The notes: generated by a model from the sequence alone, not told the origin. DNA of 64,000 nt from an uncultured delta proteobacterium (GCA_963716725.1 CAVQUB010000008.1:64001-128000); one strand, 5' to 3'. Positions 7,781 through 29,862 are shown, counted from the first letter of the stretch. Made by a program: numbers and translations.

Positions 7781-8605
7781 TCAGTTCCTCTTCCTTCGCC
7801 GCAGCGCGAACGCGAGACCCAGGCCCGAGAGCAGCCACGCGATCCCGCCTTTGCGGCTCGGATCCGCGAGGCTGCAGCCGCCTTCATCGTCCGAGTCCGA
7901 ACCCGATTTCCCCGCCGCGCCACCGGTCGCAGCGCCGCCGCTCGCCGCGCCGCCGCTCGCCGCGCCGCCGCTCGCCGCGCCGCCGGAGCCAGCGCTGCCC
8001 GCGGTGCCTCCGCCAGCCCCCGCCGTTCCGCCGGTGCTGGTCGAACCGCCAGCCCCCGCCGTTCCGCCGGTGCTGGTCGACCCGCCAGTGCCGGTCGCGC
8101 CACCGGTACCACCTGCACCACCGGTGCCGCCGTCGGCCTGGCTGTTCAGGAACTTGTCGATGACCTGGCAGGGGGTGAAGCCGGCCAGCACTCCCAACGC
8201 GATGGGATAGACGTCCGGCTTGACGGGCGTCGCGTTCGGCGCCCGCAAGCTGCCCGTGGGCAGACTCTGATCCCCGAGCCCGATGCAGACGTCGTCCTTT
8301 TCCTTGATGTTCTTCTCGACGTCCGCCCACTCGCTGACGCAGGTCTTCTCCTGACCGGACGGGCAGGAGTAGTACAGATACCCGAACGCGGGCTCGGTGT
8401 ACCCGGCGTAGCTGGTGCCGGTGCTCTTGTCGTAGAGCATCGCGGCGCCGTGGATTTGGATCTTCGTGGGCGCGGTGGCGCTGGGTTCGAGCACCACCTT
8501 CTTCACTTTGACCCAGACGCCGGCTGGCAAACTCGCCGACGCGTCGCTCGCGCTGAACACGACGCCGAGCGCGAGCAGGGTTTTGAACACATTTGCAGAC
8601 CTCAT
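7781..8605 (-). CDS. Secreted Cys-containing protein with Gly/Ser linker and MYXO-CTERM sorting tag
   Basis: GGAGG RBS, signal peptide, C-terminus GGCSLA...WLLSGLGLAFALRRRKRN. Confidence 0.8.
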   Translation of the reverse strand: MRSANVFKTLLALGVVFSASDASASLPAGVWVKVKKVVLEPSATAPTKIQIHGAAMLYDKSTGTSYAGYTEPAFGYLYYSCPSGQEKTCVSEWADVEKNIKEKDDVCIGLGDQSLPTGSLRAPNATPVKPDVYPIALGVLAGFTPCQVIDKFLNSQADGGTGGAGGTGGATGTGGSTSTGGTAGAGGSTSTGGTAGAGGGTAGSAGSGGAASGGAASGGAASGGAATGGAAGKSGSDSDDEGGCSLADPSRKGGIAWLLSGLGLAFALRRRKRN

Positions 8606-8639
8606 TCCTGACACCTCCAGTTGCAGAGGAGACCGTCTG

Positions 8640-8656
8640 AGCAACAGGCGGGCCAG
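8640..8656 (-). promoter_or_regulatory. sigma54 -24/-12 promoter for the MYXO-CTERM/desaturase/psd operon
   Basis: Minus strand CTGGCCCGCCTGTTGCT = TGG-N8-TTGCT, ~35 nt upstream of ATG 8605. Confidence 0.65.
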
Positions 8657-8816: not shown

Positions 8817-10544
8817 ATGCGACGTTCCCCTCTCTTCACGCTCACTGCCGTCACGCTGCTCTGTGCCTCCACCGCGCTCGCGGAGGGCGGCTTCGCCCTC
8901 GATCGCTACGAGCCGTCCGAGCGCGGCAGCGATTGGTTCGCCAACGAGTCCCTCGATCTGCGAGGCAACGGTCGCCTCGCGCTCGGGGCAGTCGGTGACT
9001 ACGCGTACAAGCCGCTGGTCTTTTACGACGCCAACGGGGACGAGCAGGCCGCCGTGGTCGAGCACCAGCTCTTTGTCCACCTCGGCGGTGCGATCGTGCT
9101 CTTTGATCGACTGCGGCTCGGCGCGAACCTGCCTCTCCTGGCCTACAGCAAGGGCGACTCGCTCGACGTCGCCAACTCATCCTTCTCGACCAGCGACAAA
9201 GCGAGCGTGGGCGATCCGAGGTTGACGGCCGACGTTCGCGTGCTCGGTGAATACGGCGGCGCAGCGACCCTCGCCTTCGGGGTCCAGGGGTTCATCCCGG
9301 TGGGCAACGAGGAAGCCTTCGCCAGCGACGGCAAGCTGCGCATCCGGCCGCGCCTGATGCTGGCCGGTGACGTCGGCGACATGGCCTACGCGGCACAGAC
9401 GGGGTTCAACTATCGCGCCAGGGGCGACAACCTCGGCGAGGAGGCCTTCGGGAGCGAACTCACTTTTTCGGCGGCGGTCGGCCTGCGCGCCCTGGACAAG
9501 AAGCTGATCGTCGGCCCCGAGGTCTTCGGCTCGACCGTGGTCAGCGACGGTGGCGACGGCGCATTCAAGAAGCGAACGACGCCGCTCGAGCTGGTCTTCG
9601 GCGGGAAGTACCGGGTCACGCCGGATTGGCGAGTCGGCGCTGCCGTCGGACCGGGCCTGAGCCGCGGCGTCGGCGCGCCCCAGGTGCGCGTGCTCGCGAG
9701 CATCGAGTGGTTCCCCGCGATGGAAAAGGCCGCGGGTCCGTCGGACCGCGACAGGGACGGGATCCTCGACGCGGACGACGCCTGCCCGGACACCCCGGGC
9801 GTTCGTACGGACGACCCCAAGACCAACGGCTGCCCGCCGGCGGATGCGCCCTCCGATCGCGACAAGGACGGGATCCTCGACGTGGACGACGCTTGCCCCG
9901 ACGTGCCCGGGGTCAAGAACGACGATCCCAAGAAGAACGGCTGCCCGCCCCCGAAGGACTCGGACGGAGACGGGATCACCGACGACGTCGACGCCTGCCC
10001 GACGGAGGCCGGTGTTGCCAACGTCGATCCGAGCAAGCACGGCTGTCCCGCCCCGAAGGACACCGACGGCGACGGCATCCTCGACGCAGAGGACGCCTGC
10101 CCGGACAAGGCCGGCCCTGCCGATCCCGATCCCAAGAAACACGGCTGCCCGAAGGCCCAGATCGACAAAGGGCAGATCAAGATCATCGAGCAGGTGCAGT
10201 TCGCGACCAACAGCGCGAAGATCCTGCCGGCCAGCGATCCCGTGTTGAACGCGGTCCTGGAGATCCTGCGAGATCACCCCGAGATCACCAAGGTGAACGT
10301 CGAGGGCCACACGGACAACCGCGGTGGCAAGGGCCACAACAAGGATCTCAGCAAACGCCGGGCCGCCAGCGTGGCCAAGTGGCTGGTGGACAAGGGCATC
10401 GAGGCGAAGCGGCTCTCTTCGGCGGGCTTTGGCATGGAGCGTCCCCTCGACAGCAATGACACCGAGGACGGCCGGCAGAAGAACCGGCGCGTCGAGTTCC
10501 ACATCCAGGCGAACGAAGGTTCGACGACCGTGAAGACGAAGTGA
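8817..10544 (+). CDS. OmpA-family protein: N-terminal beta-barrel, TSP3 repeats, OmpA_C (TraB-like architecture)
   Basis: Signal peptide, alternating beta-strand pattern, DxDxDGIxDxxDACP repeats, VEGHTD...LS..RA...NRRVEF. Confidence 0.88.
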   Translation: MRRSPLFTLTAVTLLCASTALAEGGFALDRYEPSERGSDWFANESLDLRGNGRLALGAVGDYAYKPLVFYDANGDEQAAVVEHQLFVHLGGAIVLFDRLRLGANLPLLAYSKGDSLDVANSSFSTSDKASVGDPRLTADVRVLGEYGGAATLAFGVQGFIPVGNEEAFASDGKLRIRPRLMLAGDVGDMAYAAQTGFNYRARGDNLGEEAFGSELTFSAAVGLRALDKKLIVGPEVFGSTVVSDGGDGAFKKRTTPLELVFGGKYRVTPDWRVGAAVGPGLSRGVGAPQVRVLASIEWFPAMEKAAGPSDRDRDGILDADDACPDTPGVRTDDPKTNGCPPADAPSDRDKDGILDVDDACPDVPGVKNDDPKKNGCPPPKDSDGDGITDDVDACPTEAGVANVDPSKHGCPAPKDTDGDGILDAEDACPDKAGPADPDPKKHGCPKAQIDKGQIKIIEQVQFATNSAKILPASDPVLNAVLEILRDHPEITKVNVEGHTDNRGGKGHNKDLSKRRAASVAKWLVDKGIEAKRLSSAGFGMERPLDSNDTEDGRQKNRRVEFHIQANEGSTTVKTK

Positions 10545-10558
10545 CCAAGAGGACGACC

Positions 10559-13672
<3,114 letters not shown>

Positions 13673-20264: not shown

Positions 20265-21344
20265 ATGCGCAAGCGGCTGATGGTTTGGGCCTTCGGGGGG
20301 ACGGCAACGCTGGCGCTGCTCACGCTCGTGCTCGGCAGCGGAAGCGAGCGAAGCGTCCTTCGGGCGAACCCGGTTCGCCTCTCGCTCGGGAGTGCTGCGG
20401 GTCGCGCCGCTCCAAAGCCCACGCCCGCGGCCTCGGCGCTGCCCGCTGTGACCACCGCGACCGCGCAGAACGGCGTGAGTTCCGAGCAGGTCTTCCACGC
20501 GCCTTGGGGTGCGGCAACCGGTGAGCTGGGCAAGAAGGCCGCAAATGAGTCCTCCCCCGAGGGACCAGCCAGCTTCGCGGTAGACGCGCGCGGTCGGGCC
20601 TTTGTGCTCGATCAGGTCAACGGCCGCGTGCAGATCTTCGAGCCGGGACTGAAGCCTCGCAGCGTCCCGCTTCCGGGAGACACCTACCAAGACGTCGCCC
20701 TGAGGTCTGACGACGGCATCGTGTTGCTCGATCGTCTGACCAAAGAGACGGTGGCCTTCGCCGACGCCAGCGGCAAGGTCACCCACGAGATCCGCTTGCA
20801 GGGCGAGGGCGTCGTCGAGGCTGGCGACGTGACCGGCTTGTTCCAGCGCAACGACGGCACCTGGGTCGAGGTGAAACACGCGAACTTGGTGCAGATCGCC
20901 GACGCCGACGGCGCCCCGCTGGAAGATCGCACCATCGTGCAGGGTCGAATGGCGGCGGACGGCAAGGTGCTGCGCGCATCGAAGTCGGGATCGCATGCCG
21001 CATACGTCGCAGAGAAGACCAGCGACGGCGTGAGAGCGCTGGCCAAGGTCAACTTCGACTTGCCGGTGTGGCAGCTGCTCGAGCTCGACACCGACGCCCG
21101 AGGGCGCGTGTTTCTGGGGGCGAGCCTGCTGGAGGAGTCCGCCGCGCCCCCCTTCCAGGTGATCGAGGCGCGCGAAGTGGTGGTCGTGCTCGACGACGCC
21201 GGAGTCGAGCAAGCGCGCGTGGACCTTCCGGCCAGCACCGGCGCCGAGGAGAGCTTTCGCCGCATCCGGATCGGCGCCGATGGCGTCCTGTATCACCTGG
21301 CCTACGAGGAACGCGGCGCGACCATGAGGAGGTTCTCGCTATGA
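20265..21344 (+). CDS. Exported NHL/beta-propeller-like protein
   Basis: N-terminal hydrophobic anchor; EGPASFAVDARGRAFVLDQVNGRVQIF (NHL-like blade); ATGA overlap with the next gene. Confidence 0.7.
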   Translation: MRKRLMVWAFGGTATLALLTLVLGSGSERSVLRANPVRLSLGSAAGRAAPKPTPAASALPAVTTATAQNGVSSEQVFHAPWGAATGELGKKAANESSPEGPASFAVDARGRAFVLDQVNGRVQIFEPGLKPRSVPLPGDTYQDVALRSDDGIVLLDRLTKETVAFADASGKVTHEIRLQGEGVVEAGDVTGLFQRNDGTWVEVKHANLVQIADADGAPLEDRTIVQGRMAADGKVLRASKSGSHAAYVAEKTSDGVRALAKVNFDLPVWQLLELDTDARGRVFLGASLLEESAAPPFQVIEAREVVVVLDDAGVEQARVDLPASTGAEESFRRIRIGADGVLYHLAYEERGATMRRFSL

Positions 21345-22921
21345 TCCGCTGGCGTCACCTGGCGCTGGTCGGCGCCGCTCTCGGTGTCGCGTTGCCGGCG
21401 CTGGCCGCGCCGCCCGCCATGACCCGCGACGAAATCCTCTCGCGGGGCAAGGGCGTCGTGAAGTTCTCCTATTGGTGGGGCCATGGCCGCTGGAGCACCA
21501 GCTCGACCTCCCACGGATCGTGCTCGGGTAGCTGCCCGGGCTGTTCCCACTCGGGCTCCTACGGGGCGGACTGCTCCGGCTTCGTCGCCAAGGCGTGGCA
21601 GGTGCCCGGCGCCATCAGCGTGACCACTGACTCGCACCCCTATTCGACCTATCACTTCGACAACACCAGCACCCACTGGACCACGATCTCGCGGAGCAGC
21701 ACCAAGCAAGCCGACGCCTTCGTCTACAACACCAACGGCGCCGGCCACATCGTGCTCTACGAGAGTGGCGACCCCTGGGGATGGGTCACCGCCATCGAGT
21801 GCAAGGGATGCAGCTACGGTTGCGTGCGCGGCAGCCGCACCCTGAGCTCGAGCTACAAGGCTATCCGACGCCACAACGTGCAGGACTTTGCCGACAAGGA
21901 CGGCGACGGAGTCGCGGACGCCAAAGACAACTGCGTATCGACCAAGAACACCAGCCAGACCGACACCAACAAAGACGGGCAGGGCGACGCCTGCGACACA
22001 GACGACGACGGCGACGGCGTGGCGGACGCCAAGGACAACTGCGCCTTGGTGAAGAACGCGACCCAGACCGACACGGACAAAGACGGCAAGGGCGACGCCT
22101 GCGACACGGATGACGACGGCGACGGCGTGCTGGATGCCAAGGACAACTGCGCGCTCGCGTCCAACAAGAGCCAACTCGACACGGACAAAGACGGTAAGGG
22201 CGACGCCTGCGATACCGATGACGACGGCGACGGCGTCTTGGACAGCAAGGACAACTGCGCGCTGGTGAAGAACGCGACCCAGGCCGACACCGACAAAGAC
22301 GGCAAAGGCGACGCCTGCGCGGTGGATGACGACGGGGACGGCGTCGTCGATACCGACGACAACTGCAAGCTCGACGCCAACTCGGACCAGACCGACAGCG
22401 ACGGGGACGGCAAAGGCGACGCTTGCGACGACGACGACGACGGAGACGGCGTGGTCGACGCGGCCGACGTCTGTCCCAACGTGACGGATTCGACGCAGGC
22501 GGATGCGGACGGCGACGGACTGGGCGATGCGTGCGACGATGATCGCGACGGCGACGGAGTCGCCAACGCGAGCGACAACTGTCCGGAGCTCGCCGCCGAG
22601 AGCCAAGACGACAGCGACGAGGACGGCGTGGGCGACGCGTGCGACGACGATCTCGACGGCGACGGCGTCTTCAATGCCGTCGACAACTGCCCGACCGTCT
22701 CCAATCCCGATCAGAAAGACGGCATTGGCGACAAGGGTGCAGCGTGCTCGGCCGGTGATCTCGGAGATTTGGGCTTCGATGGCGCCGGAGGCTTCGACCC
22801 GGGTGAAGAGATGAGCGGCGGCTGTGGTTGCTCGCTGCCCGGCGACGGGCGCGAGTCGTCGTTCGGGCTCCTGGCCCTGATCGCCGCGCTCTCGCTGATC
22901 GGCCGTCGGCGCTCCCGCTAG
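21341..22921 (+). CDS. NlpC/P60-type cysteine peptidase with 8 TSP3 repeats and MYXO-CTERM
   Basis: Signal peptide ALA-A; YWWG...[12 protein letters not shown] and GHIVLYE catalytic Cys/His; DxDGDGVxDxxDNC...GDAC x8; GGCGCS...[11 protein letters not shown]. Confidence 0.82.
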
Positions 22922-22971
22922 GGCCAACCGCCGGTTGGCAGTTGGCGGCGGCGGTGACGCCAAGACTCAGC

Positions 22972-23018
22972 CCTAACCAGCTGAAATCACACGCTGGGAA
23001 GCTGGTCCCGCCTTTGCA
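22972..23018 (+). promoter_or_regulatory. IHF-like site plus sigma54 promoter for the SpoIID-M15 pair
   Basis: CTAACCAGCTGAAAT (IHF-like, 1 mismatch) then CTGGTCCCGCCTTTGCA (GG 23004-05, GC 23016-17). Confidence 0.55.
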
Positions 23019-23031
23019 CATACATCAGCCC

Positions 23032-24531
23032 ATGGCGCACTGGGCTCGCTTCGGGTTGTTGTTGACCGTCCTGTTCACCTTCGCGTGTCAGGCAGGGCCA
23101 ATGGGAAACGAGGAGCCGATCCTCGAGGTGCATCAGGACGTCAGCGCGCCGCTCGCCAAGGCCTACTGCTCGGTCCCGGTGACGGGCGTCGGGACGAAGA
23201 ACATGGAGGAGGACTACCTCCCCCACGTGATCACCTGCGAGAACGGCGGCGCCAATCTCCAGGCGTTGAAGGCGCAGGCCATCTCCGCGCGTTCCGTCGC
23301 CTACTACGCGATGGCCACCAAGGGATCCATCTGCGACGGACAAGGCTGCCAGGTGTACTCGTGTGGCGCGAAGCCCTCGGCCAAGGCCTACCAGGCCGTG
23401 AAGGAGACCGCGGGCATCTACCTGTCGTTCGGCGGGATGCTCACCTACGGCTTCTACGTCAGCGGTGACAACAACACCTCGGCGCCAAGCTGCAAGGGCA
23501 GCTCGAGTCACGCCATGGAGAAGTACGTCACCTACAACTCCGGGCTCAGCGGCACGAGCGTGAAGCAGACCTCGCTCGGGTACATCGGGCCGCCGGGCTA
23601 CGGACAGAACCGCGGGTGCATGAGCCAATGGGGCGCGCGCTGCCTCGAGGCCAACAAGGGCTACGACTACAAGCAGATCTTACAGTTCTACTACGGCTCG
23701 GACATCAAGCTCCTGACCGCCTCGGGGTCGTGTGTCGGGCCGGCCGACGGCGACGGCGACGGCGTGACCGACGACAAAGACAACTGCCCGAGCGCCAAGA
23801 ACGCGGATCAGAAAGACACGGACAAGGACGGCAAGGGTGACGCTTGTGACACCGACGATGACGGTGACGGCGTCGCGGACACGACGGACAACTGCCCCTT
23901 GGTGTCGAACAAGGCGCAGACCGACACGGACAAGGACGGAAAGGGCGACGCTTGTGACACCGACGATGACGGCGACGGCGTCGCGGACACGACGGACAAC
24001 TGCCCCTTGGTGTCGAACAAGGCGCAGACCGATACGGACAAGGACGGCAAGGGCGACGCCTGCGAGACCGATGACGACGGTGACGGAGTCGCCGACGACA
24101 CCGATAACTGCCCTGGGACTCCCAACGCTGACCAGACCGACACGGACAACGACGGCGAAGGGGACGTCTGCGACGACGACGGAGACGGTGACGGAGTCGC
24201 CGACGCGAGCGACAACTGCCCGACCACGTCGAATCCCGATCAGGCCGACTCGGACGAAGACGGAGCGGGCGACGCTTGCGACTCGCCGAGCGGCACCGGC
24301 GGTGCCAGCGGCAGCGGCGGCTCGAGTGGTGCCGGCGGTTCGAGCGGCGGCAGCGGTTCGGGTGGCAAGAGCACCGGCGGCGGCGCGGGCCAGCAGACGA
24401 AGGTGGTCGACGATGGCGACGACGACGGTGGCTGCACCACGTCGCGCGGACCGGCCGGGTCTGGCTTCGGACTGATGGGCGCGCTGGTCGCCCTTGCATT
24501 CGCCGGGCGCCGGCGGACAATGGCGCGATGA
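23032..24531 (+). CDS. SpoIID/LytB lytic transglycosylase domain with 5 TSP3 repeats and MYXO-CTERM
   Basis: FTFAC lipobox; [36 protein letters not shown]...[12 protein letters not shown]3 x5; GGCTTS...ALAFAGRRR. Confidence 0.82.
23821..24036 (+). repeat. Near-exact 108-bp tandem duplication of one TSP3 unit
   Basis: 23821-23928 and 23929-24036 encode the identical 36-aa unit and differ only at a few synonymous sites. Confidence 0.85.
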
Positions 24532-25766
24532 TCGCCCGCGCTTTGGTGCTGCTCGGCGTGCTGGGGCTCGCGGGGTGCGCCGTCGAGGTTCAGCCCGACG
24601 AGCCCGACGGTCCCGAGCCACAGGAAGAGATCGCGACCGTCCAGAGCGGGCTCAGCGTGTCCCAGGCCCTCTCGAGTGGCTGCTCGACTGCGATCGTCGA
24701 AGGCCTGAGCAAGCAGATCATCGCGGAGATGAACTGCATGAACCCGAACGCGCTGAAGGCGGTGCCGTCGCGCCCGAACCTGGTGAAGAACGCCTCGCAC
24801 GTGTTCATGGTCATGCAGCCCAGCGCGGTGGACGCTCTGGTCAAGGCGGTGGACTCGAGCCCGAGCAAGACGCTGCACATCAACAGCATGCTGCGCACCC
24901 TGCCCCAGCAGTGGCTGCTCTATCACTGGTACCAGGCCGGCAAATGCGGCATCCCGCTGGCAGCCACGCCCGGCAACTCGAACCACGAAGGCGGCACGGC
25001 CTTCGACACCGGGGACTACACTGCCTGGAAGAGCGCGCTCACCGCCAAGGGCTTCCAGTGGTACGGCTCCAGCGACGTCTACCACTACACCTACGTTGGC
25101 GCCGGCACCGTCAACCTCAAGGGCAAGGACGTTCTCGCGTTCCAGCGGCTTTGGAACCTGAACAACCCGGGAGACAAGATCACGGAGGACGGCGACTTTG
25201 GCCCGGCCAGCGACTCTCGCTTGGGCAAGAGCCCCACCGAAGGATTCGCGAAAGGGTCGACTTGCTCGCAGCAGCCCAGCGACTCCGATGGCGACGGCGT
25301 CGCGGACGCCACGGACAACTGCCCCGGCGCGAAGAACCCGGGCCAGGAAGATCTCGACCAGGACGGCCAGGGCGATGCCTGCGACGATGACGACGACGGT
25401 GACGGCGTCCCCGACGCGACGGACAACTGCCCGAGCGTGGGCAACGCGACCCAAGTCGACTGCGACCAGGACGGCAAAGGCGACGCCTGCGACGGCGCCA
25501 GCGACTGCGGAACTGGCGGTGCGGCCGGTGCGGCGGGAGCCGGCGGAAGTGCGGGCGTGGCGGGTGCGGCCGGCAGCGGCGGTGCGATCAGCGCGTCGGG
25601 TGGCAGTTCAGGCACCGGCGGCGGAGGCGGGCAGTCGACCAAGACGCTCAGCGACAGCGGCGACGGCGGCAGCTGCACCGTGAGCGCACAACCGCGCGCT
25701 GCGGGCTTCGCTTGGCTGCTCGCCGCGTTTGCACTGGGTTGGGCCCGACGCCGACCTGTTCGCTGA
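24528..25766 (+). CDS. M15 (VanY-like) Zn peptidase with PG-binding-like motif, 2 TSP3 repeats and MYXO-CTERM
   Basis: LAGC lipobox; [22 protein letters not shown] (SxHxxGxAxD), [14 protein letters not shown]...EDGDFGP; GGSCTVS...LGWARRR; ATGA overlap. Confidence 0.82.
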
Positions 25767-25863
25767 ATTTCACGCTCTTGGGTGGCCCTCGGCCCGCGGG
25801 CCGTGCTATTTGCACTGCACCGAGGGGCACCCCGCGTCGCTCGGCTCAGCGAAGGAGCATCGC

Positions 25864-27045
25864 ATGCGTCGAGGCCTGGCTTTCGTTCTCGGTTCAGTCG
25901 TCATCACGATCGCCGCTGCGGCGTGCAGCAGCGCTAGCGGCGGAGGCGGCGACGGAGGAGGAGGAGGTTCGAGCGCCTCGGGCGGCGGTGGCAGCGGCGG
26001 CAGCGGCGGTGGCGTGAACATCGACGGCGGTGGCGGCACCGGCGCGCTGACGGGCTGCGAGAAACAGGTCTTTGGCGGCGAGCTGGTCCCCGTCGACATG
26101 TTCCTGATGTTCGATCGCAGCGGGTCGATGCAGGACGGCGGTAAGTGGAGCTCCGTCACCGGCGCCGTGAAGAAATTCGTCGCGCTGCCTGGGCTCAGCC
26201 AGCTCGGCATGGGGCTCGGTTTCTTCCCGGTCAACGCCACCGGCCCCATCCCCACGGCCTGCACCAAGGACCTCGACTGCGGCTTTTACGGGCCGTGCAT
26301 GCCCGGCTTCAACAACTGCTCTGGTTCGCTGCTCGGCATGAAAGACTCATGCGTCTCGACCGACTACCAGAAGCCGGCGGTCGGGATCGAAGACTTCCCG
26401 GGCGTTGCATCCAAGATCACCGCCGCCCTTGACGGTGCGACCCCGGGCGGCGATTCGACTCCGGCGGGGCCCGCCCTCGAAGGCGCCATCGATCACGCCA
26501 CGATCTGGCAACAGGATCACCTCGACCGCGTGGTGGTGGTGATCCTCGCCACCGACGGCGAGCCCAACAACTGCACGCCCAACACCGTGGCGGACGTGGC
26601 TGGCCACGCCGCCGAGGGGGCCAAGCAGACGCCTCCCATCAAGACCTTCGTGATCGGCGTCGGCGAGCTCTCGGTGCTCAATCAGGTCGCCGCGGCTGGA
26701 GGGACCGACAAAGCCATCATCGTCAGCACCGGCAACGCCGAGAAAGAGTTCCTCGACGCGCTGAACAAGATCCGCGGCGCGGTCGGCTGCCAGTACCTGA
26801 TCCCCACCGGCGGCAAGTCCGACCCCAAGAAGGTCAACGTGCTCTTCACGCCCGAAGACGGCAGCCCGGGCGTGCTCATCAAGCAGTCCCCGAGCGCGTC
26901 CGCCTGTGTCGGTCAAGTTGGCTGGTACTACGACAATCCCGACTCGCCCACGCAGATCATCTTGTGCCCCGGTGCCTGCGACCTCGTCACGAACAAGAAG
27001 GGCAAAGTCGAGGTCGTGGTCGGCTGCAAGACCGAGGTCAACTAG
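25864..27045 (+). CDS. vWA-domain lipoprotein
   Basis: AAAC lipobox, Gly linker, MIDAS DRSGSM...TP...ATDGEP, Cys-rich insert, [15 protein letters not shown] tail. Confidence 0.85.

Positions 27046-28464: not shown

Positions 28465-29862
<1,398 letters not shown>

What the first reader, a model, noticed from the sequence alone, without database searches (positions are those of the whole stretch)
20265..25766. Surface-displayed peptidoglycan-hydrolase arsenal: three different wall-cutting enzymes on TSP3 stalks with MYXO-CTERM anchors
Seen: three consecutive co-oriented genes share one design (export signal, catalytic head, TSP3 Ca-binding repeats, MYXO-CTERM) but have unrelated heads. These are NlpC/P60 (DCSG...GH), SpoIID/LytB (catalytic Glu in TCEN, ALKAQA) and M15 (SxHxxGxAxD plus a PG-binding-like motif). 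Established: these families cut stem peptides, glycan strands and peptide bonds of peptidoglycan, and MYXO-CTERM sorts proteins to the outer surface, away from the cell's own wall. Inference: a contact-dependent kit for digesting prey or neighbour walls (especially Gram-positive) or wall debris. I know of no description of such a tethered multi-enzyme cluster.
Basis: partly seen in the sequence, partly recalled or inferred. Interest (0 to 1): 0.85.

Follow-up and report, generated by a model that had tools for sequence, protein, structure and literature searches.

The report
Tethered wall-cutting enzymes with a safety-catch partner
A soil/wastewater myxobacterium carries an operon of three different cell-wall-cutting enzymes, each on a calcium-binding stalk with a surface-anchoring tag, preceded by an overlooked fourth gene whose product is predicted to plug the first enzyme's active site, probably to protect the producer.

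Summary
Window 21341-25766 (+) encodes three co-oriented proteins of one design: signal peptide, peptidoglycan-hydrolase head, TSP3 repeats (7, 5 and 2), MYXO-CTERM tail. The heads are an NlpC/P60 fold (no Pfam hit over threshold; AlphaFold model, Z 11.9), SpoIID/LytB (Pfam 43.7 bits) and a distant M15/VanY-like zinc peptidase.

G0 is a membrane-tethered six-bladed NHL-like propeller, translationally coupled (ATGA) to the NlpC/P60 gene. A G0 relative lies within 4 kb of a G1-head relative in 47 of 57 loci. All 3 head paralogs in this genome have one. In 201 sampled Myxococcota genomes, 21 of the 22 with the head have G0, and none of the other 179 do. A complex prediction (0.93; best control 0.00) puts G0 over the catalytic Cys/His/Glu.

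The genome has a myxosortase and GspD, so surface display is plausible but not shown. The full three-enzyme cluster is confined to a small Polyangiaceae clade. The head-stalk-tag design recurs more widely, one gene at a time.

Best reading: exported, tethered wall hydrolases with a periplasmic immunity-like inhibitor. This is a new variant of known kinds. The prey-digestion role remains inference.

The parts
20265..21344 (+). G0: 359-aa protein with an N-terminal hydrophobic anchor or signal, an Ala/Pro-rich disordered linker (about residues 25-66) and a six-bladed NHL-like beta-propeller. Predicted inhibitor/immunity-like partner of the G1 head.
   Evidence: No Pfam family. AF2 pLDDT 84.5. 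Foldseek hits NHL propellers at 4e-9. Stop overlaps the G1 start as ATGA. Complex ipSAE 0.93 against a best control of 0.00. Linkage.
21341..22921 (+). G1: signal peptide, NlpC/P60-fold Cys peptidase/amidase head (about residues 25-185), 7 TSP3 repeats, MYXO-CTERM.
21959..22714 (+). G1 TSP3 repeat array (108-nt tandem units).
   Evidence: 7 TSP_3 matches over cut-off. TRF period 108, 5.2 copies.
22814..22918 (+). G1 MYXO-CTERM tail (GGCGC, hydrophobic helix, RRRSR).
   Evidence: 26.2 bits and 20.6 bits (cut-off 20).
23032..24531 (+). G2: signal peptide, SpoIID/LytB-type lytic transglycosylase head, 5 TSP3 repeats, Gly/Ser linker, MYXO-CTERM.
   Evidence: PF08486 43.7 bits (cut-off 23). TIGR02669 71.2 bits (below 83.3). 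PDB 5i1t at 2.5e-5 with the catalytic Glu aligned.
23743..24243 (+). G2 TSP3 repeat array.
24424..24516 (+). G2 MYXO-CTERM tail.
   Evidence: 22.0 bits; 16.5 bits on the whole protein.
24528..25766 (+). G3: lipobox signal (LAGC), distant M15/VanY-like LAS zinc peptidase head, 2 TSP3 repeats, Gly/Ala/Ser linker, MYXO-CTERM. Its start overlaps the G2 stop (ATGA).
25260..25454 (+). G3 TSP3 repeats.
25662..25754 (+). G3 MYXO-CTERM tail.
   Evidence: 25.0 bits; 19.7 bits.
25790..25803 (+). Terminator-like GC hairpin just after the G3 stop. Weak: 6 such sites were found in the region against 4.3 expected.

Best explanation
This is a four-gene operon, G0-G1-G2-G3, of a Polyangiaceae-like myxobacterium.

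G1, G2 and G3 are Sec-exported peptidoglycan hydrolases. G1 is an NlpC/P60-fold Cys peptidase or amidase. G2 is a SpoIID/LytB-type lytic transglycosylase. G3 is an M15-like zinc peptidase. Each is built like the TraA receptor: an N-terminal head, a spacer and a MYXO-CTERM tag. Here the spacer is a run of Ca-binding TSP3 repeats.

Inferred route, from the M. xanthus model: the tag holds the folded protein in the inner membrane. Its Cys is lipidated, myxosortase removes the helix, and the T2SS moves the protein to the outer face of the outer membrane. There the head sits at the tip of the stalk and can reach peptidoglycan outside the cell, such as prey walls (above all exposed Gram-positive walls), lysed-cell sacculi or debris.

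G0 is a membrane-tethered periplasmic beta-propeller. It is predicted to bind the G1 head and cover its Cys-His-Glu site, acting as a safety catch that protects the producer's own wall while G1 is folded in the periplasm.

A possible division of labour, by analogy with SpoIIP/SpoIID (recalled): G1 strips or cuts stem peptides, G2 cuts the denuded glycan, and G3 trims peptides.

Shown here: gene structure, domains, conserved catalytic residues, presence of the sorting machinery, and G0-G1 linkage. Predicted in silico: the G0-G1 complex. Inferred: localisation, inhibition, substrates and ecological role.
For: Domains and catalytic residues.

Sorting machinery in the genome: myxosortase core at 150.4 bits (cut-off 100); GspD at 475 bits (cut-off 351); 56 MYXO-CTERM matches over cut-off among 150 scored of 241 candidates.

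Literature (passages of PMC11980579). [quoted passage not shown] TraA and MXAN_4924 need MrtX for cell-surface localisation. TraA is described as head, stalk and MYXO-CTERM (PMC12045341).

G0-G1 coupling:
- There is an ATGA overlap.
- A G0 relative lies within 4 kb of a G1-head relative in 47 of 57 loci. It is directly upstream and co-directional in 27 of them. These include all 25 long forms with a Cys/helix/Arg tail.
- 3 of 3 G1-head paralogues in this genome have an adjacent G0 paralogue.
- In 201 sampled Myxococcota genomes the head is in 22 and G0 in 21. Those 21 are all among the 22.

Complex prediction: ipSAE 0.92/0.93/0.93 against a best of 3 controls of 0.00. The mark was reached by 116 of 157 solved complexes and 2 of 215 mismatched pairs. 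Partner pLDDT is 92 and the runs agree in >= 98% of contacts. The interface includes G1 77-80 (C78), 134-136 (H136) and 153-160 (E153), plus the G0 loop 91-98 (nearly invariant E95 and P98).

Relatives of the G1 and G3 heads are fused to wall-binding or spacer modules typical of exported lysins: SH3_3, SLH, 3D, CarboxypepD_reg and FG-GAP.

In this genome, 20 of the 21 TSP_3 matches over cut-off lie in four ORFs: G1, G2, G3 and a VanY-headed ORF on C9. All four have wall-hydrolase heads.
Against: No localisation, activity or inhibition data exist for these proteins.

Two of the three MYXO-CTERM tails score just under cut-off on the whole protein (16.5 and 19.7 < 20). They pass only in the genome scan.

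The G1 and G3 heads are below Pfam's cut-offs.

In OmpA-type proteins TSP3 repeats lie in the periplasm between the barrel and the OmpA domain (PMC12045341 passages; two such genes are in this window). The stalk therefore does not by itself indicate the outside.

SpoIID/LytB enzymes are best known for remodelling the cell's own wall.

G3 and the C9 protein have an N-terminal lipobox as well as the C-terminal tag. This fits the simple head-at-the-tip picture poorly.

No inhibitor was found for G2 or G3.

A tethered enzyme cannot reach the wall of an intact Gram-negative neighbour.

The complex score is the model's own confidence, and my own alignments were used, so its calibration holds only roughly.

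RNA evidence is weak. There are three exact contigs in one metatranscriptome, no silent-stretch control was laid, and DNA carry-over is not excluded.
Confidence: 0.5

Rival explanations
1. Own-wall remodelling. The proteins stay in the periplasm, lipid-anchored to the inner or outer membrane. The TSP3 stalk acts as a spacer that sets the head at the height of the cell's own peptidoglycan. G0 is a regulator of an autolysin used in growth, division, gliding or spore formation.
For: In OmpA/TraB-type proteins TSP3 repeats link an outer-membrane barrel to a wall-binding domain, which puts them in the periplasm (window genes 8817-10544 and 28465-29862). SpoIID/LytB and NlpC/P60 enzymes with protein regulators are classic own-wall machinery; PDB entries LytE-IseA 8i2e and MepS-NlpI 8xup are among the fold hits. 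G3 has an N-terminal lipobox. The legend of Table S1 in PMC11980579 lists a PBP2 domain among M. xanthus MYXO-CTERM proteins.
Against: The MYXO-CTERM proteins tested in M. xanthus depend on myxosortase for cell-surface localisation and are reported to cross the outer membrane via the T2SS (PMC11980579 passages). The G1 head and G0 are found in only 22 and 21 of 201 sampled Myxococcota genomes, too patchy for core wall growth. Head relatives are fused to SH3_3 and SLH modules typical of exported lysins.
Confidence: 0.2
2. Released lysins. The tag serves mainly as a T2SS export route. The enzymes are then shed by proteolysis in the Gly/Ser linker, or leave on outer-membrane vesicles, and act at a distance.
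For: [quoted passage not shown] G2 and G3 have long Gly/Ser/Ala linkers before the tag.
Against: A long Ca-binding stalk would be wasted on a soluble enzyme. G1 has almost no such linker. There is no direct data either way.
Confidence: 0.13
3. Kin-directed toxin and immunity pair. G1 is delivered to neighbouring myxobacteria, for example with outer-membrane exchange, and G0 is the immunity protein that spares kin.
For: The G0-G1 pairs look like effector-immunity pairs. They are adjacent, strictly co-occurring, and present as three diverged paralogue pairs in one genome (G0 31-33% identical, heads 48-54%). Tse1/Tsi1 (4fgi) is among the fold relatives of the G1 head.
Against: A protein on the outer leaflet has no known path to a recipient's periplasm. 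G2 and G3 lack partners. No polymorphism analysis was done.
Confidence: 0.09
4. Adhesins. The heads bind wall material or other glycans without cutting, and the proteins act in cohesion like the TSP3/MYXO-CTERM protein MtsC.
For: NCBIfam's MtsC model matches the TSP3 parts (247.7, 176.7 and 71 bits). Non-catalytic NlpC/P60 domains exist; RipD 4jxb is among the fold hits.
Against: All three scores are below the MtsC cut-off of 350 and cover only the repeat region. The catalytic Cys/His/Glu of G1, the Glu of G2 and the His/Asp/His of G3 are conserved. A partner that covers a catalytic site is hard to explain for a lectin.
Confidence: 0.05

Closest known systems
MYXO-CTERM surface proteins of Myxococcus xanthus (TraA, MXAN_4924, MepA, MtsC/'MstC'), sorted by myxosortase MrtX and the T2SS
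   Same: They share the tripartite C-terminal tag (Cys, helix, Arg cluster), an N-terminal signal peptide and a head-stalk-tag layout like TraA. A myxosortase and GspD are present in the genome. MtsC also combines TSP3 repeats with MYXO-CTERM (NCBIfam NF047638).
   Different: The heads are peptidoglycan hydrolases rather than a recognition domain or protease. The stalk is TSP3 rather than TraA's Cys-rich repeats. The scores are below the MtsC cut-off. I found no studied example of a wall hydrolase on this anchor. The only trace is a 'MurNAc-LAA' entry in the legend of a table I could not see.
NlpC/P60 hydrolase with a protein inhibitor or immunity partner: Tse1-Tsi1 (PDB 4fgi), LytE-IseA (8i2e), MepS-NlpI (8xup)
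   Same: The G1 head has the same fold (Z 8.2-10.5 to these entries). It has an adjacent, strictly co-occurring partner gene predicted to sit over the active site.
   Different: G0 is an NHL-like six-bladed propeller with no Pfam family. G1 is Sec-exported with a surface-sorting tag, rather than injected by a type VI system or acting as a Gram-positive autolysin. Inhibition is predicted, not measured. That Tsi1 and IseA have other folds is my recollection; neither is among the 38 Foldseek rows listed for G0, and this does not exclude likeness.
SpoIID/SpoIIP wall-degrading machine of endospore formers
   Same: G2 carries the SpoIID domain with the catalytic Glu aligned. It sits next to a peptide-cutting enzyme, so peptide stripping followed by glycan cutting is conceivable.
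   Different: The organism is a Gram-negative myxobacterium. There is no SpoIIP or SpoIIM. G2 has a TSP3 stalk and a MYXO-CTERM tag. The order of action is my inference; the requirement of SpoIID for denuded glycan is recalled, not checked here.
M15 (VanY / L-Ala-D-Glu peptidase, LAS) enzymes such as Ply500 (2vo9) and LdcB (4ox5)
   Same: G3 shares the H-x6-D and D-x-x-H zinc motif.
   Different: The relationship is very distant: below Pfam's cut-off, with a best PDB profile E of 9e-4. G3 has an extra conserved C-terminal subdomain and the TSP3/MYXO-CTERM tail. Bond specificity is unknown.
OmpA-family proteins with TSP3 repeats (TraB type)
   Same: They use the same Ca-binding repeat as a spacer in envelope proteins of the same genome and window.
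   Different: In those proteins the repeats join a barrel to a wall-binding domain in the periplasm. Here they join an enzyme to a lipid tag.

Membership tests
NlpC/P60 (PF00877, papain-like wall peptidases/amidases), for G1 | Family HMM over its curated cut-off | tested here: not met
   No hit at E <= 0.01 on the whole protein. On the head alone, 18.9 bits against a cut-off of 23. The paralogue on C12 scores 21.4 bits.
NlpC/P60 (PF00877, papain-like wall peptidases/amidases), for G1 | Papain-like alpha+beta fold of the family | tested here: met
   AF2 model pLDDT 79.8. Foldseek top hits are all CHAP or NlpC/P60 (best E 7.8e-4). VIA Z 11.9, rmsd 3.4, 123 aligned to 3h41; 74 of the 997 chains aligned reach Z >= 8.
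NlpC/P60 (PF00877, papain-like wall peptidases/amidases), for G1 | Conserved catalytic Cys, His and a third polar residue in that order | tested here: met
   C78 (DCSG), H136 (GH) and E153 are invariant in 27 sequences. The assignment of E153 as the third residue is by position and order only.
NlpC/P60 (PF00877, papain-like wall peptidases/amidases), for G1 | Cleaves peptidoglycan stem peptides | not testable with these tools
   Needs enzyme assays.
SpoIID/LytB (PF08486, TIGR02669), for G2 | Family HMM over its curated cut-off | tested here: met
   PF08486 scores 43.7 bits (cut-off 23). TIGR02669 scores 71.2 bits, below its cut-off of 83.3.
SpoIID/LytB (PF08486, TIGR02669), for G2 | Catalytic Glu and the following ALKAQ motif | tested here: met
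   Aligned to SpoIID 5i1t and 5txu, with CEN against GEM and [10 protein letters not shown] against ALKAQSVAAR.
M15 / VanY (PF02557), for G3 | Family HMM over its curated cut-off | tested here: not met
   19.2 and 20.3 bits against a cut-off of 25. 26 of 27 aligned homologues match at E <= 0.001 (best 7.2e-7).
M15 / VanY (PF02557), for G3 | Zinc ligands H-x6-D and a later H with an acidic residue three before it | tested here: met
   H153, D160, D183 and H186 are invariant in 27 sequences. They align to SNH..D and D..H of 2vo9.
MYXO-CTERM sorting signal (TIGR03901) | HMM over cut-off (20 bits) | tested here: inconclusive
   Whole-protein scan: 20.6, 16.5 and 19.7 bits. Genome scan: 26.2, 22.0 and 25.0 bits, all over cut-off.
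MYXO-CTERM sorting signal (TIGR03901) | Tripartite tail at the very C-terminus: Cys motif, hydrophobic helix, Arg cluster | tested here: met
   Seen in all three translations.
MYXO-CTERM sorting signal (TIGR03901) | Cognate myxosortase and T2SS in the same genome | tested here: met
   NF040914 at 150.4 bits (cut-off 100). TIGR02517 at 475 bits (cut-off 351).
MYXO-CTERM sorting signal (TIGR03901) | Cell-surface localisation | not testable with these tools
   Needs shaving or immunolabelling.
MtsC cell-cohesion protein (NF047638) | Equivalog HMM over cut-off (350 bits) along its length | tested here: not met
   247.7, 176.7 and 71 bits, matching only profile positions of about 85-266, which is the repeat region.
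Hydrolase-inhibitor / effector-immunity pair (G0 with G1) | Conserved adjacency and co-occurrence of the two genes | tested here: met
   47 of 57 loci. 3 of 3 paralogues in the genome. 21 of 22 head-positive and 0 of 179 head-negative genomes have G0.
Hydrolase-inhibitor / effector-immunity pair (G0 with G1) | Partner binds over the active site | tested here: met
   In silico only. ipSAE 0.93 against a best control of 0.00. The interface includes C78, H136 and E153.
Hydrolase-inhibitor / effector-immunity pair (G0 with G1) | Partner blocks activity and protects the producer | not testable with these tools
   Needs biochemistry and genetics.

The most novel reading that the evidence does not exclude
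Some Myxococcota arm their surface with wall-cutting enzymes held on Ca-rigid stalks by a lipid tag, for contact-dependent digestion of foreign cell walls. They solve the self-harm problem of exporting folded lysins through their own periplasm with a dedicated, previously unrecognised family of membrane-tethered beta-propeller immunity proteins (G0). The G0/NlpC-P60 cassette is the ancestral unit. In one Polyangiaceae clade it has recruited a SpoIID-like glycan cutter and an M15 peptidase on the same stalk-and-tag chassis. Together they would form an extracellular counterpart of the sporulation wall-degrading machine.
Probability: 0.3. Interest if true: 0.8.

Novelty: new variant of a known kind. 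Interest (0 to 1): 0.62.

Why it matters
[quoted passage not shown] A class of wall hydrolases tethered to the predator's surface would be a third route. It is testable with standard tools: mrtX or T2SS mutants, shaving and zymography.

The G0 family is large, with 568 clusters at E <= 1e-30, and wholly unannotated. Its strict genomic coupling to an unannotated NlpC/P60 subfamily (866 relatives) gives both families a concrete, checkable function.

The work also gives annotators a warning. Repeat-driven scores can push a VanY-headed protein over the 'MtsC' equivalog cut-off.

Tried and rejected
- Single-sequence PDB searches of the G1 and G3 heads gave only chance-level rows, such as pilins and antibodies.
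- The profile of A1 against PDB returned only thrombospondins, because the aligned tails carried TSP3 repeats. It says nothing about the head.
The only support is a source's name on a 54%-identical homologue.
- G4, the VWA-like lipoprotein at 25864-27045, is not part of the unit. It gave no match in the 78 or the 57 related loci, and there are many paralogues in the genome.
- The promoter scan found 0 sites, which is uninformative for this organism.
- The ESM Atlas gave only 'NHL-like propeller' neighbours for G0.
- Earlier notes of this scan: none for this place.
- Sah et al. 2020 (PMC7237302) is not held, so its evidence is cited only through passages of later papers.
- RNA runs: most cover on the stretch comes from 90-95% alike TSP3 repeats of other organisms. 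Parts without cover are not interpreted.
- Habitat rows (biofilter, wastewater, sediment, groundwater metagenomes) were used only as a loose indication.
- The TraB identity of the OmpA/TSP3 gene at 28465-29862 is rejected (150 bits against a cut-off of 700).
- Tsi1 and IseA are not among the 38 Foldseek rows listed for G0. This is no evidence that the folds differ.

Full report
**1. What is there**

The window is about 68% G+C. On the + strand of the flagged stretch there are four genes, not three:

| Gene | Coordinates | Length |
|---|---|---|
| G0 | 20265-21344 | 359 aa |
| G1 | 21341-22921 | 526 aa |
| G2 | 23032-24531 | 499 aa |
| G3 | 24528-25766 | 412 aa |

- G0/G1 and G2/G3 overlap by ATGA. 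G1 and G2 are 110 nt apart.
- A weak terminator-like hairpin follows G3, but such sites are not enriched in the region.
- Database proteins identical to G0, G1 and G3 have the same lengths, which supports the chosen starts.
- The finding's start coordinate is the start of G0.

**2. The shared design is real**

*TSP_3 repeats.* TSP_3 matches strongly in G1, G2 and G3: 232, 174 and 52 bits, in 7, 5 and 2 stretches. The arrays are 108-nt tandem repeats.

*MYXO-CTERM.* All three proteins end in a Cys motif, a hydrophobic helix and an Arg cluster. The HMM is borderline on the whole proteins (20.6/16.5/19.7 bits, cut-off 20). It is over cut-off in the genome scan (26.2/22.0/25.0 bits).

*N-termini.* By eye these look like Sec signals, and G3 has a canonical lipobox (LAGC). 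No signal-peptide predictor was available.

**3. The heads**

*G2* is a SpoIID/LytB domain. PF08486 scores 43.7 bits (cut-off 23), and TIGR02669 is below its cut-off (71.2 < 83.3). The catalytic Glu and the ALKAQ motif align to solved SpoIID structures.

*G1* has no family at Pfam's threshold (18.9 < 23 for NLPC_P60 on the head alone).
- It belongs to a well conserved, unannotated subfamily with 866 relatives at E <= 0.001.
- An AlphaFold model from 27 sequences (pLDDT 79.8) matches only CHAP and NlpC/P60 wall hydrolases. Foldseek's best E is 7.8e-4. VIA gives Z 11.9, rmsd 3.4 and 123 aligned residues to 3h41, with 74 of the 997 chains aligned at Z >= 8.
- C78, H136 and E153 are invariant. So is a C61-x3-C65-x2-C68-x-H70 insert, which is poorly modelled and unexplained.

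*G3* is a distant M15/VanY-like LAS peptidase.
- It scores below Pfam's cut-off (19.2-20.3 < 25).
- The S-x-H-x-x-G-x-A-x-D and D-x-x-H motifs are invariant.
- 26 of 27 aligned homologues match VanY at E <= 0.001.
- Its best solved relative by profile is the L-Ala-D-Glu peptidase 2vo9 (E 9e-4).

**4. The missed gene, G0**

G0 has no Pfam family. Its model (pLDDT 84.5) shows an N-terminal helix, a disordered Ala/Pro linker and a six-bladed propeller. The closest folds are NHL domains (Foldseek 4e-9; the ESM Atlas agrees). By profile the family is large: 568 clusters at E <= 1e-30.

G0 is tightly linked to the G1 head:
- All 4 loci with a true G1 orthologue in the first scan have G0 directly upstream.
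- In a second scan with the head alone, 47 of 57 loci hold a G0 relative within 4 kb. In 27 it is directly upstream and co-directional, in 9 co-directional elsewhere, and in 11 on the other strand.
- Of the 10 loci without G0, 6 lack a full 4-kb flank on at least one side; in 4 of these one flank is under 600 nt.
- This genome has three head paralogues. Each has its own diverged G0 paralogue next to it (31-33% identity), one pair again with an ATGA overlap.
- In 201 sampled Myxococcota genomes the head is found in 22 and G0 in 21. Those 21 are all among the 22. The exception is the weakest head match (E 7e-19). Most pairs lie side by side on one contig. Kin are not independent, and the second search used a stricter first look, so these figures are floors.

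**5. Predicted G0-G1 complex**

- The G1 head (residues 25-185) was folded with the G0 propeller (residues 68-359). ipSAE was 0.92, 0.93 and 0.93, against a best of three controls of 0.00.
- The mark was reached by 116 of 157 solved complexes and 2 of 215 mismatched pairs.
- Partner pLDDT is 92, and the runs agree in >= 98% of contacts.
- My own alignments were used, so the calibration holds only roughly.
- On G1 the interface includes residues 77-80, 134-136 and 153-160, which are all three putative catalytic residues. On G0 it includes loop 91-98, which touches H136 and carries the nearly invariant E95 and P98.
- This is the geometry of an inhibitor. The model supports binding but does not show it.

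**6. Sorting machinery and route**

- The genome (7.9 Mb, 35 contigs, 84% complete) encodes a myxosortase core and GspD. It has at least 56 MYXO-CTERM matches, five of them in this window.
- Passages of PMC11980579 give the working model. The tag holds the protein in the inner membrane. The Cys is presumably lipidated, MrtX cuts off the helix, and the T2SS recognises the folded client and moves it to the cell surface.
- In that paper TraA and MXAN_4924 depend on MrtX for surface localisation, and 'most' of the 35 M. xanthus MYXO-CTERM proteins are predicted adhesins or hydrolases.
- On this model a folded wall hydrolase would sit on a long tether in the producer's periplasm before export. That gives a membrane-tethered inhibitor such as G0 an obvious job.

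**7. How general is the design?**

*In this genome.* 20 of the 21 TSP_3 matches over cut-off lie in four ORFs: G1, G2, G3 and C9:305954-307528(-). The fourth has a clear VanY head (56.9 bits), 8 TSP3 stretches and a Cys/helix/Arg tail by eye; TIGR03901 did not report it. A second SpoIID-like protein, with a MYXO-CTERM tail (19.9 bits) but no TSP3, lies on C2.

*Elsewhere.* I picked 18 of 78 TSP3-bearing loci by eye because their tails looked like MYXO-CTERM, and scanned them with Pfam. The sample is biased by the query.

| Head type | Number of 18 |
|---|---|
| G1-type | 2 |
| SpoIID | 3 |
| VanY | 2 (one sub-threshold) |
| CHAP | 1 (sub-threshold) |
| Astacin | 1 |
| Laminin_G_3 | 2 |
| PKD | 2 |
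| NIDO | 1 |
| None found | 4 |

The G1 head also occurs with other spacers before a MYXO-CTERM-like tail. Of 57 loci, 25 have such a tail (21 by a regular expression, 4 more by eye) and 13 carry three or more TSP3 motifs. It also occurs as SH3-fused or stand-alone forms.

*The cluster itself.* The three-enzyme cluster is rare. G0-G1-G2-G3 occurs in L082 and L084, and G0-G1-G2 in L124. A relative with an 87% identical head (L090) lacks G2 and G3 downstream.

**8. Reading**

The best-supported account is an operon of exported, lipid-tethered wall hydrolases with an immunity-like partner for the first enzyme.

- The outward direction is supported by the tag, the sorting machinery, the fusion partners of head relatives (SH3_3, SLH, 3D) and the logic of G0.
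- The direction is not shown. TSP3 repeats are periplasmic in OmpA-type proteins, and SpoIID-like enzymes usually act on the cell's own wall.
- What protects the producer from G2 and G3 is open. One possibility is that G2 needs glycan stripped by G1. That would make G0 sufficient, but it rests on recalled SpoIID biochemistry.
- The double lipid signal on G3 is unexplained.

**9. Expression and occurrence**

Near-identical DNA is held by runs of 9 studies labelled biofilter, wastewater, sediment and groundwater metagenomes. One metatranscriptome holds three exact contigs:
- 154 nt at 21576-21729;
- 139 nt at 21966-22104;
- 151 nt at 24863-25013.

This is a weak hint that G1 and G3 are transcribed. 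No silent control stretch was laid and DNA carry-over is not excluded.

**10. Novelty**

Every domain family is known, and so is the sorting tag. I found three things in no paper:
- wall hydrolases on TSP3 stalks with MYXO-CTERM;
- their clustering;
- the G0/NlpC-P60 pairing.

The searches behind this were: 'MYXO-CTERM' (24 papers); thrombospondin + Myxococcus + cohesion; myxobacteria + peptidoglycan hydrolase + predation + prey; thrombospondin type 3 + peptidoglycan + myxobacteria; and NlpC + Myxococcus + immunity protein + peptidoglycan.

The library lacks most subscription journals. Table S1 of PMC11980579 is an image; its legend names TSP_3 and MurNAc-LAA.

I rate the finding a new variant of known kinds. 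It is of real interest to people working on myxobacterial surfaces, predation and wall-hydrolase control, but it rests on inference for localisation and function.

Noticed in passing
window 8817-10544 (+) and 10541-13672 (+): An OmpA-family protein (barrel, TSP3 and OmpA domain) overlaps the start of a 1043-aa protein. That protein has DUF11, bacterial TSP3 repeats and a strong MYXO-CTERM (36.1 bits). The barrel/OmpA plus MYXO-CTERM adhesin pairing recalls TraB/TraA.
   Followed up: partly
window 7781-8644 (-): A 287-aa protein with MYXO-CTERM (28.2 bits) and no Pfam family. With it, five MYXO-CTERM proteins lie within 20 kb of this window.
   Followed up: no
G000 C9:305954-307528 (-) = L138:55-1629: A protein with a VanY head, 8 TSP3 stretches and a Cys/helix/Arg tail scores 428 bits on NCBIfam's MtsC equivalog (cut-off 350). 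The score seems to come from repeats alone, so annotation pipelines would probably name a wall peptidase 'cell-cell cohesion protein MtsC'.
   Followed up: partly
window 24528-24580 (G3 N-terminus); L138 (C9 protein): Both proteins have an N-terminal lipobox (LAGC, LGGC) as well as a C-terminal Cys sorting tail. This implies two lipid anchors on one protein, or use of only one of them.
   Followed up: no
window 21521-21550 (G1 residues 61-70): A C-x3-C-x2-C-x-H insert in the NlpC/P60 head is invariant across 27 relatives and modelled with pLDDT < 50. It may be a metal site or a disulfide knot.
   Followed up: no
window 44001-48000: G+C falls to 0.55-0.57 against about 0.68 elsewhere, with raised GC skew. 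This may be foreign or otherwise atypical DNA.
   Followed up: no
window 25864-27045 (+): A VWA-like lipoprotein (22.5 bits, just under the cut-off of 23.8) belongs to a family with more than 10 paralogues in this genome. It is not conserved next to the operon.
   Followed up: partly
L004 / L084 (same contig): In the closest full cluster from another genome, the G3 orthologue aligns as two overlapping pieces and the G1 orthologue's reading frame loses its tail. These are likely frameshifts or assembly errors.
   Followed up: no
G000 C12:312145-314513 (-) and C15:479245-481474 (-): Two further G0/G1-head pairs sit in the same genome with other architectures. One is a lipoprotein head with a Cys-rich C-terminal region. 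The other has two SH3_3 domains before the head. The C12 pair again overlaps by ATGA.
   Followed up: partly
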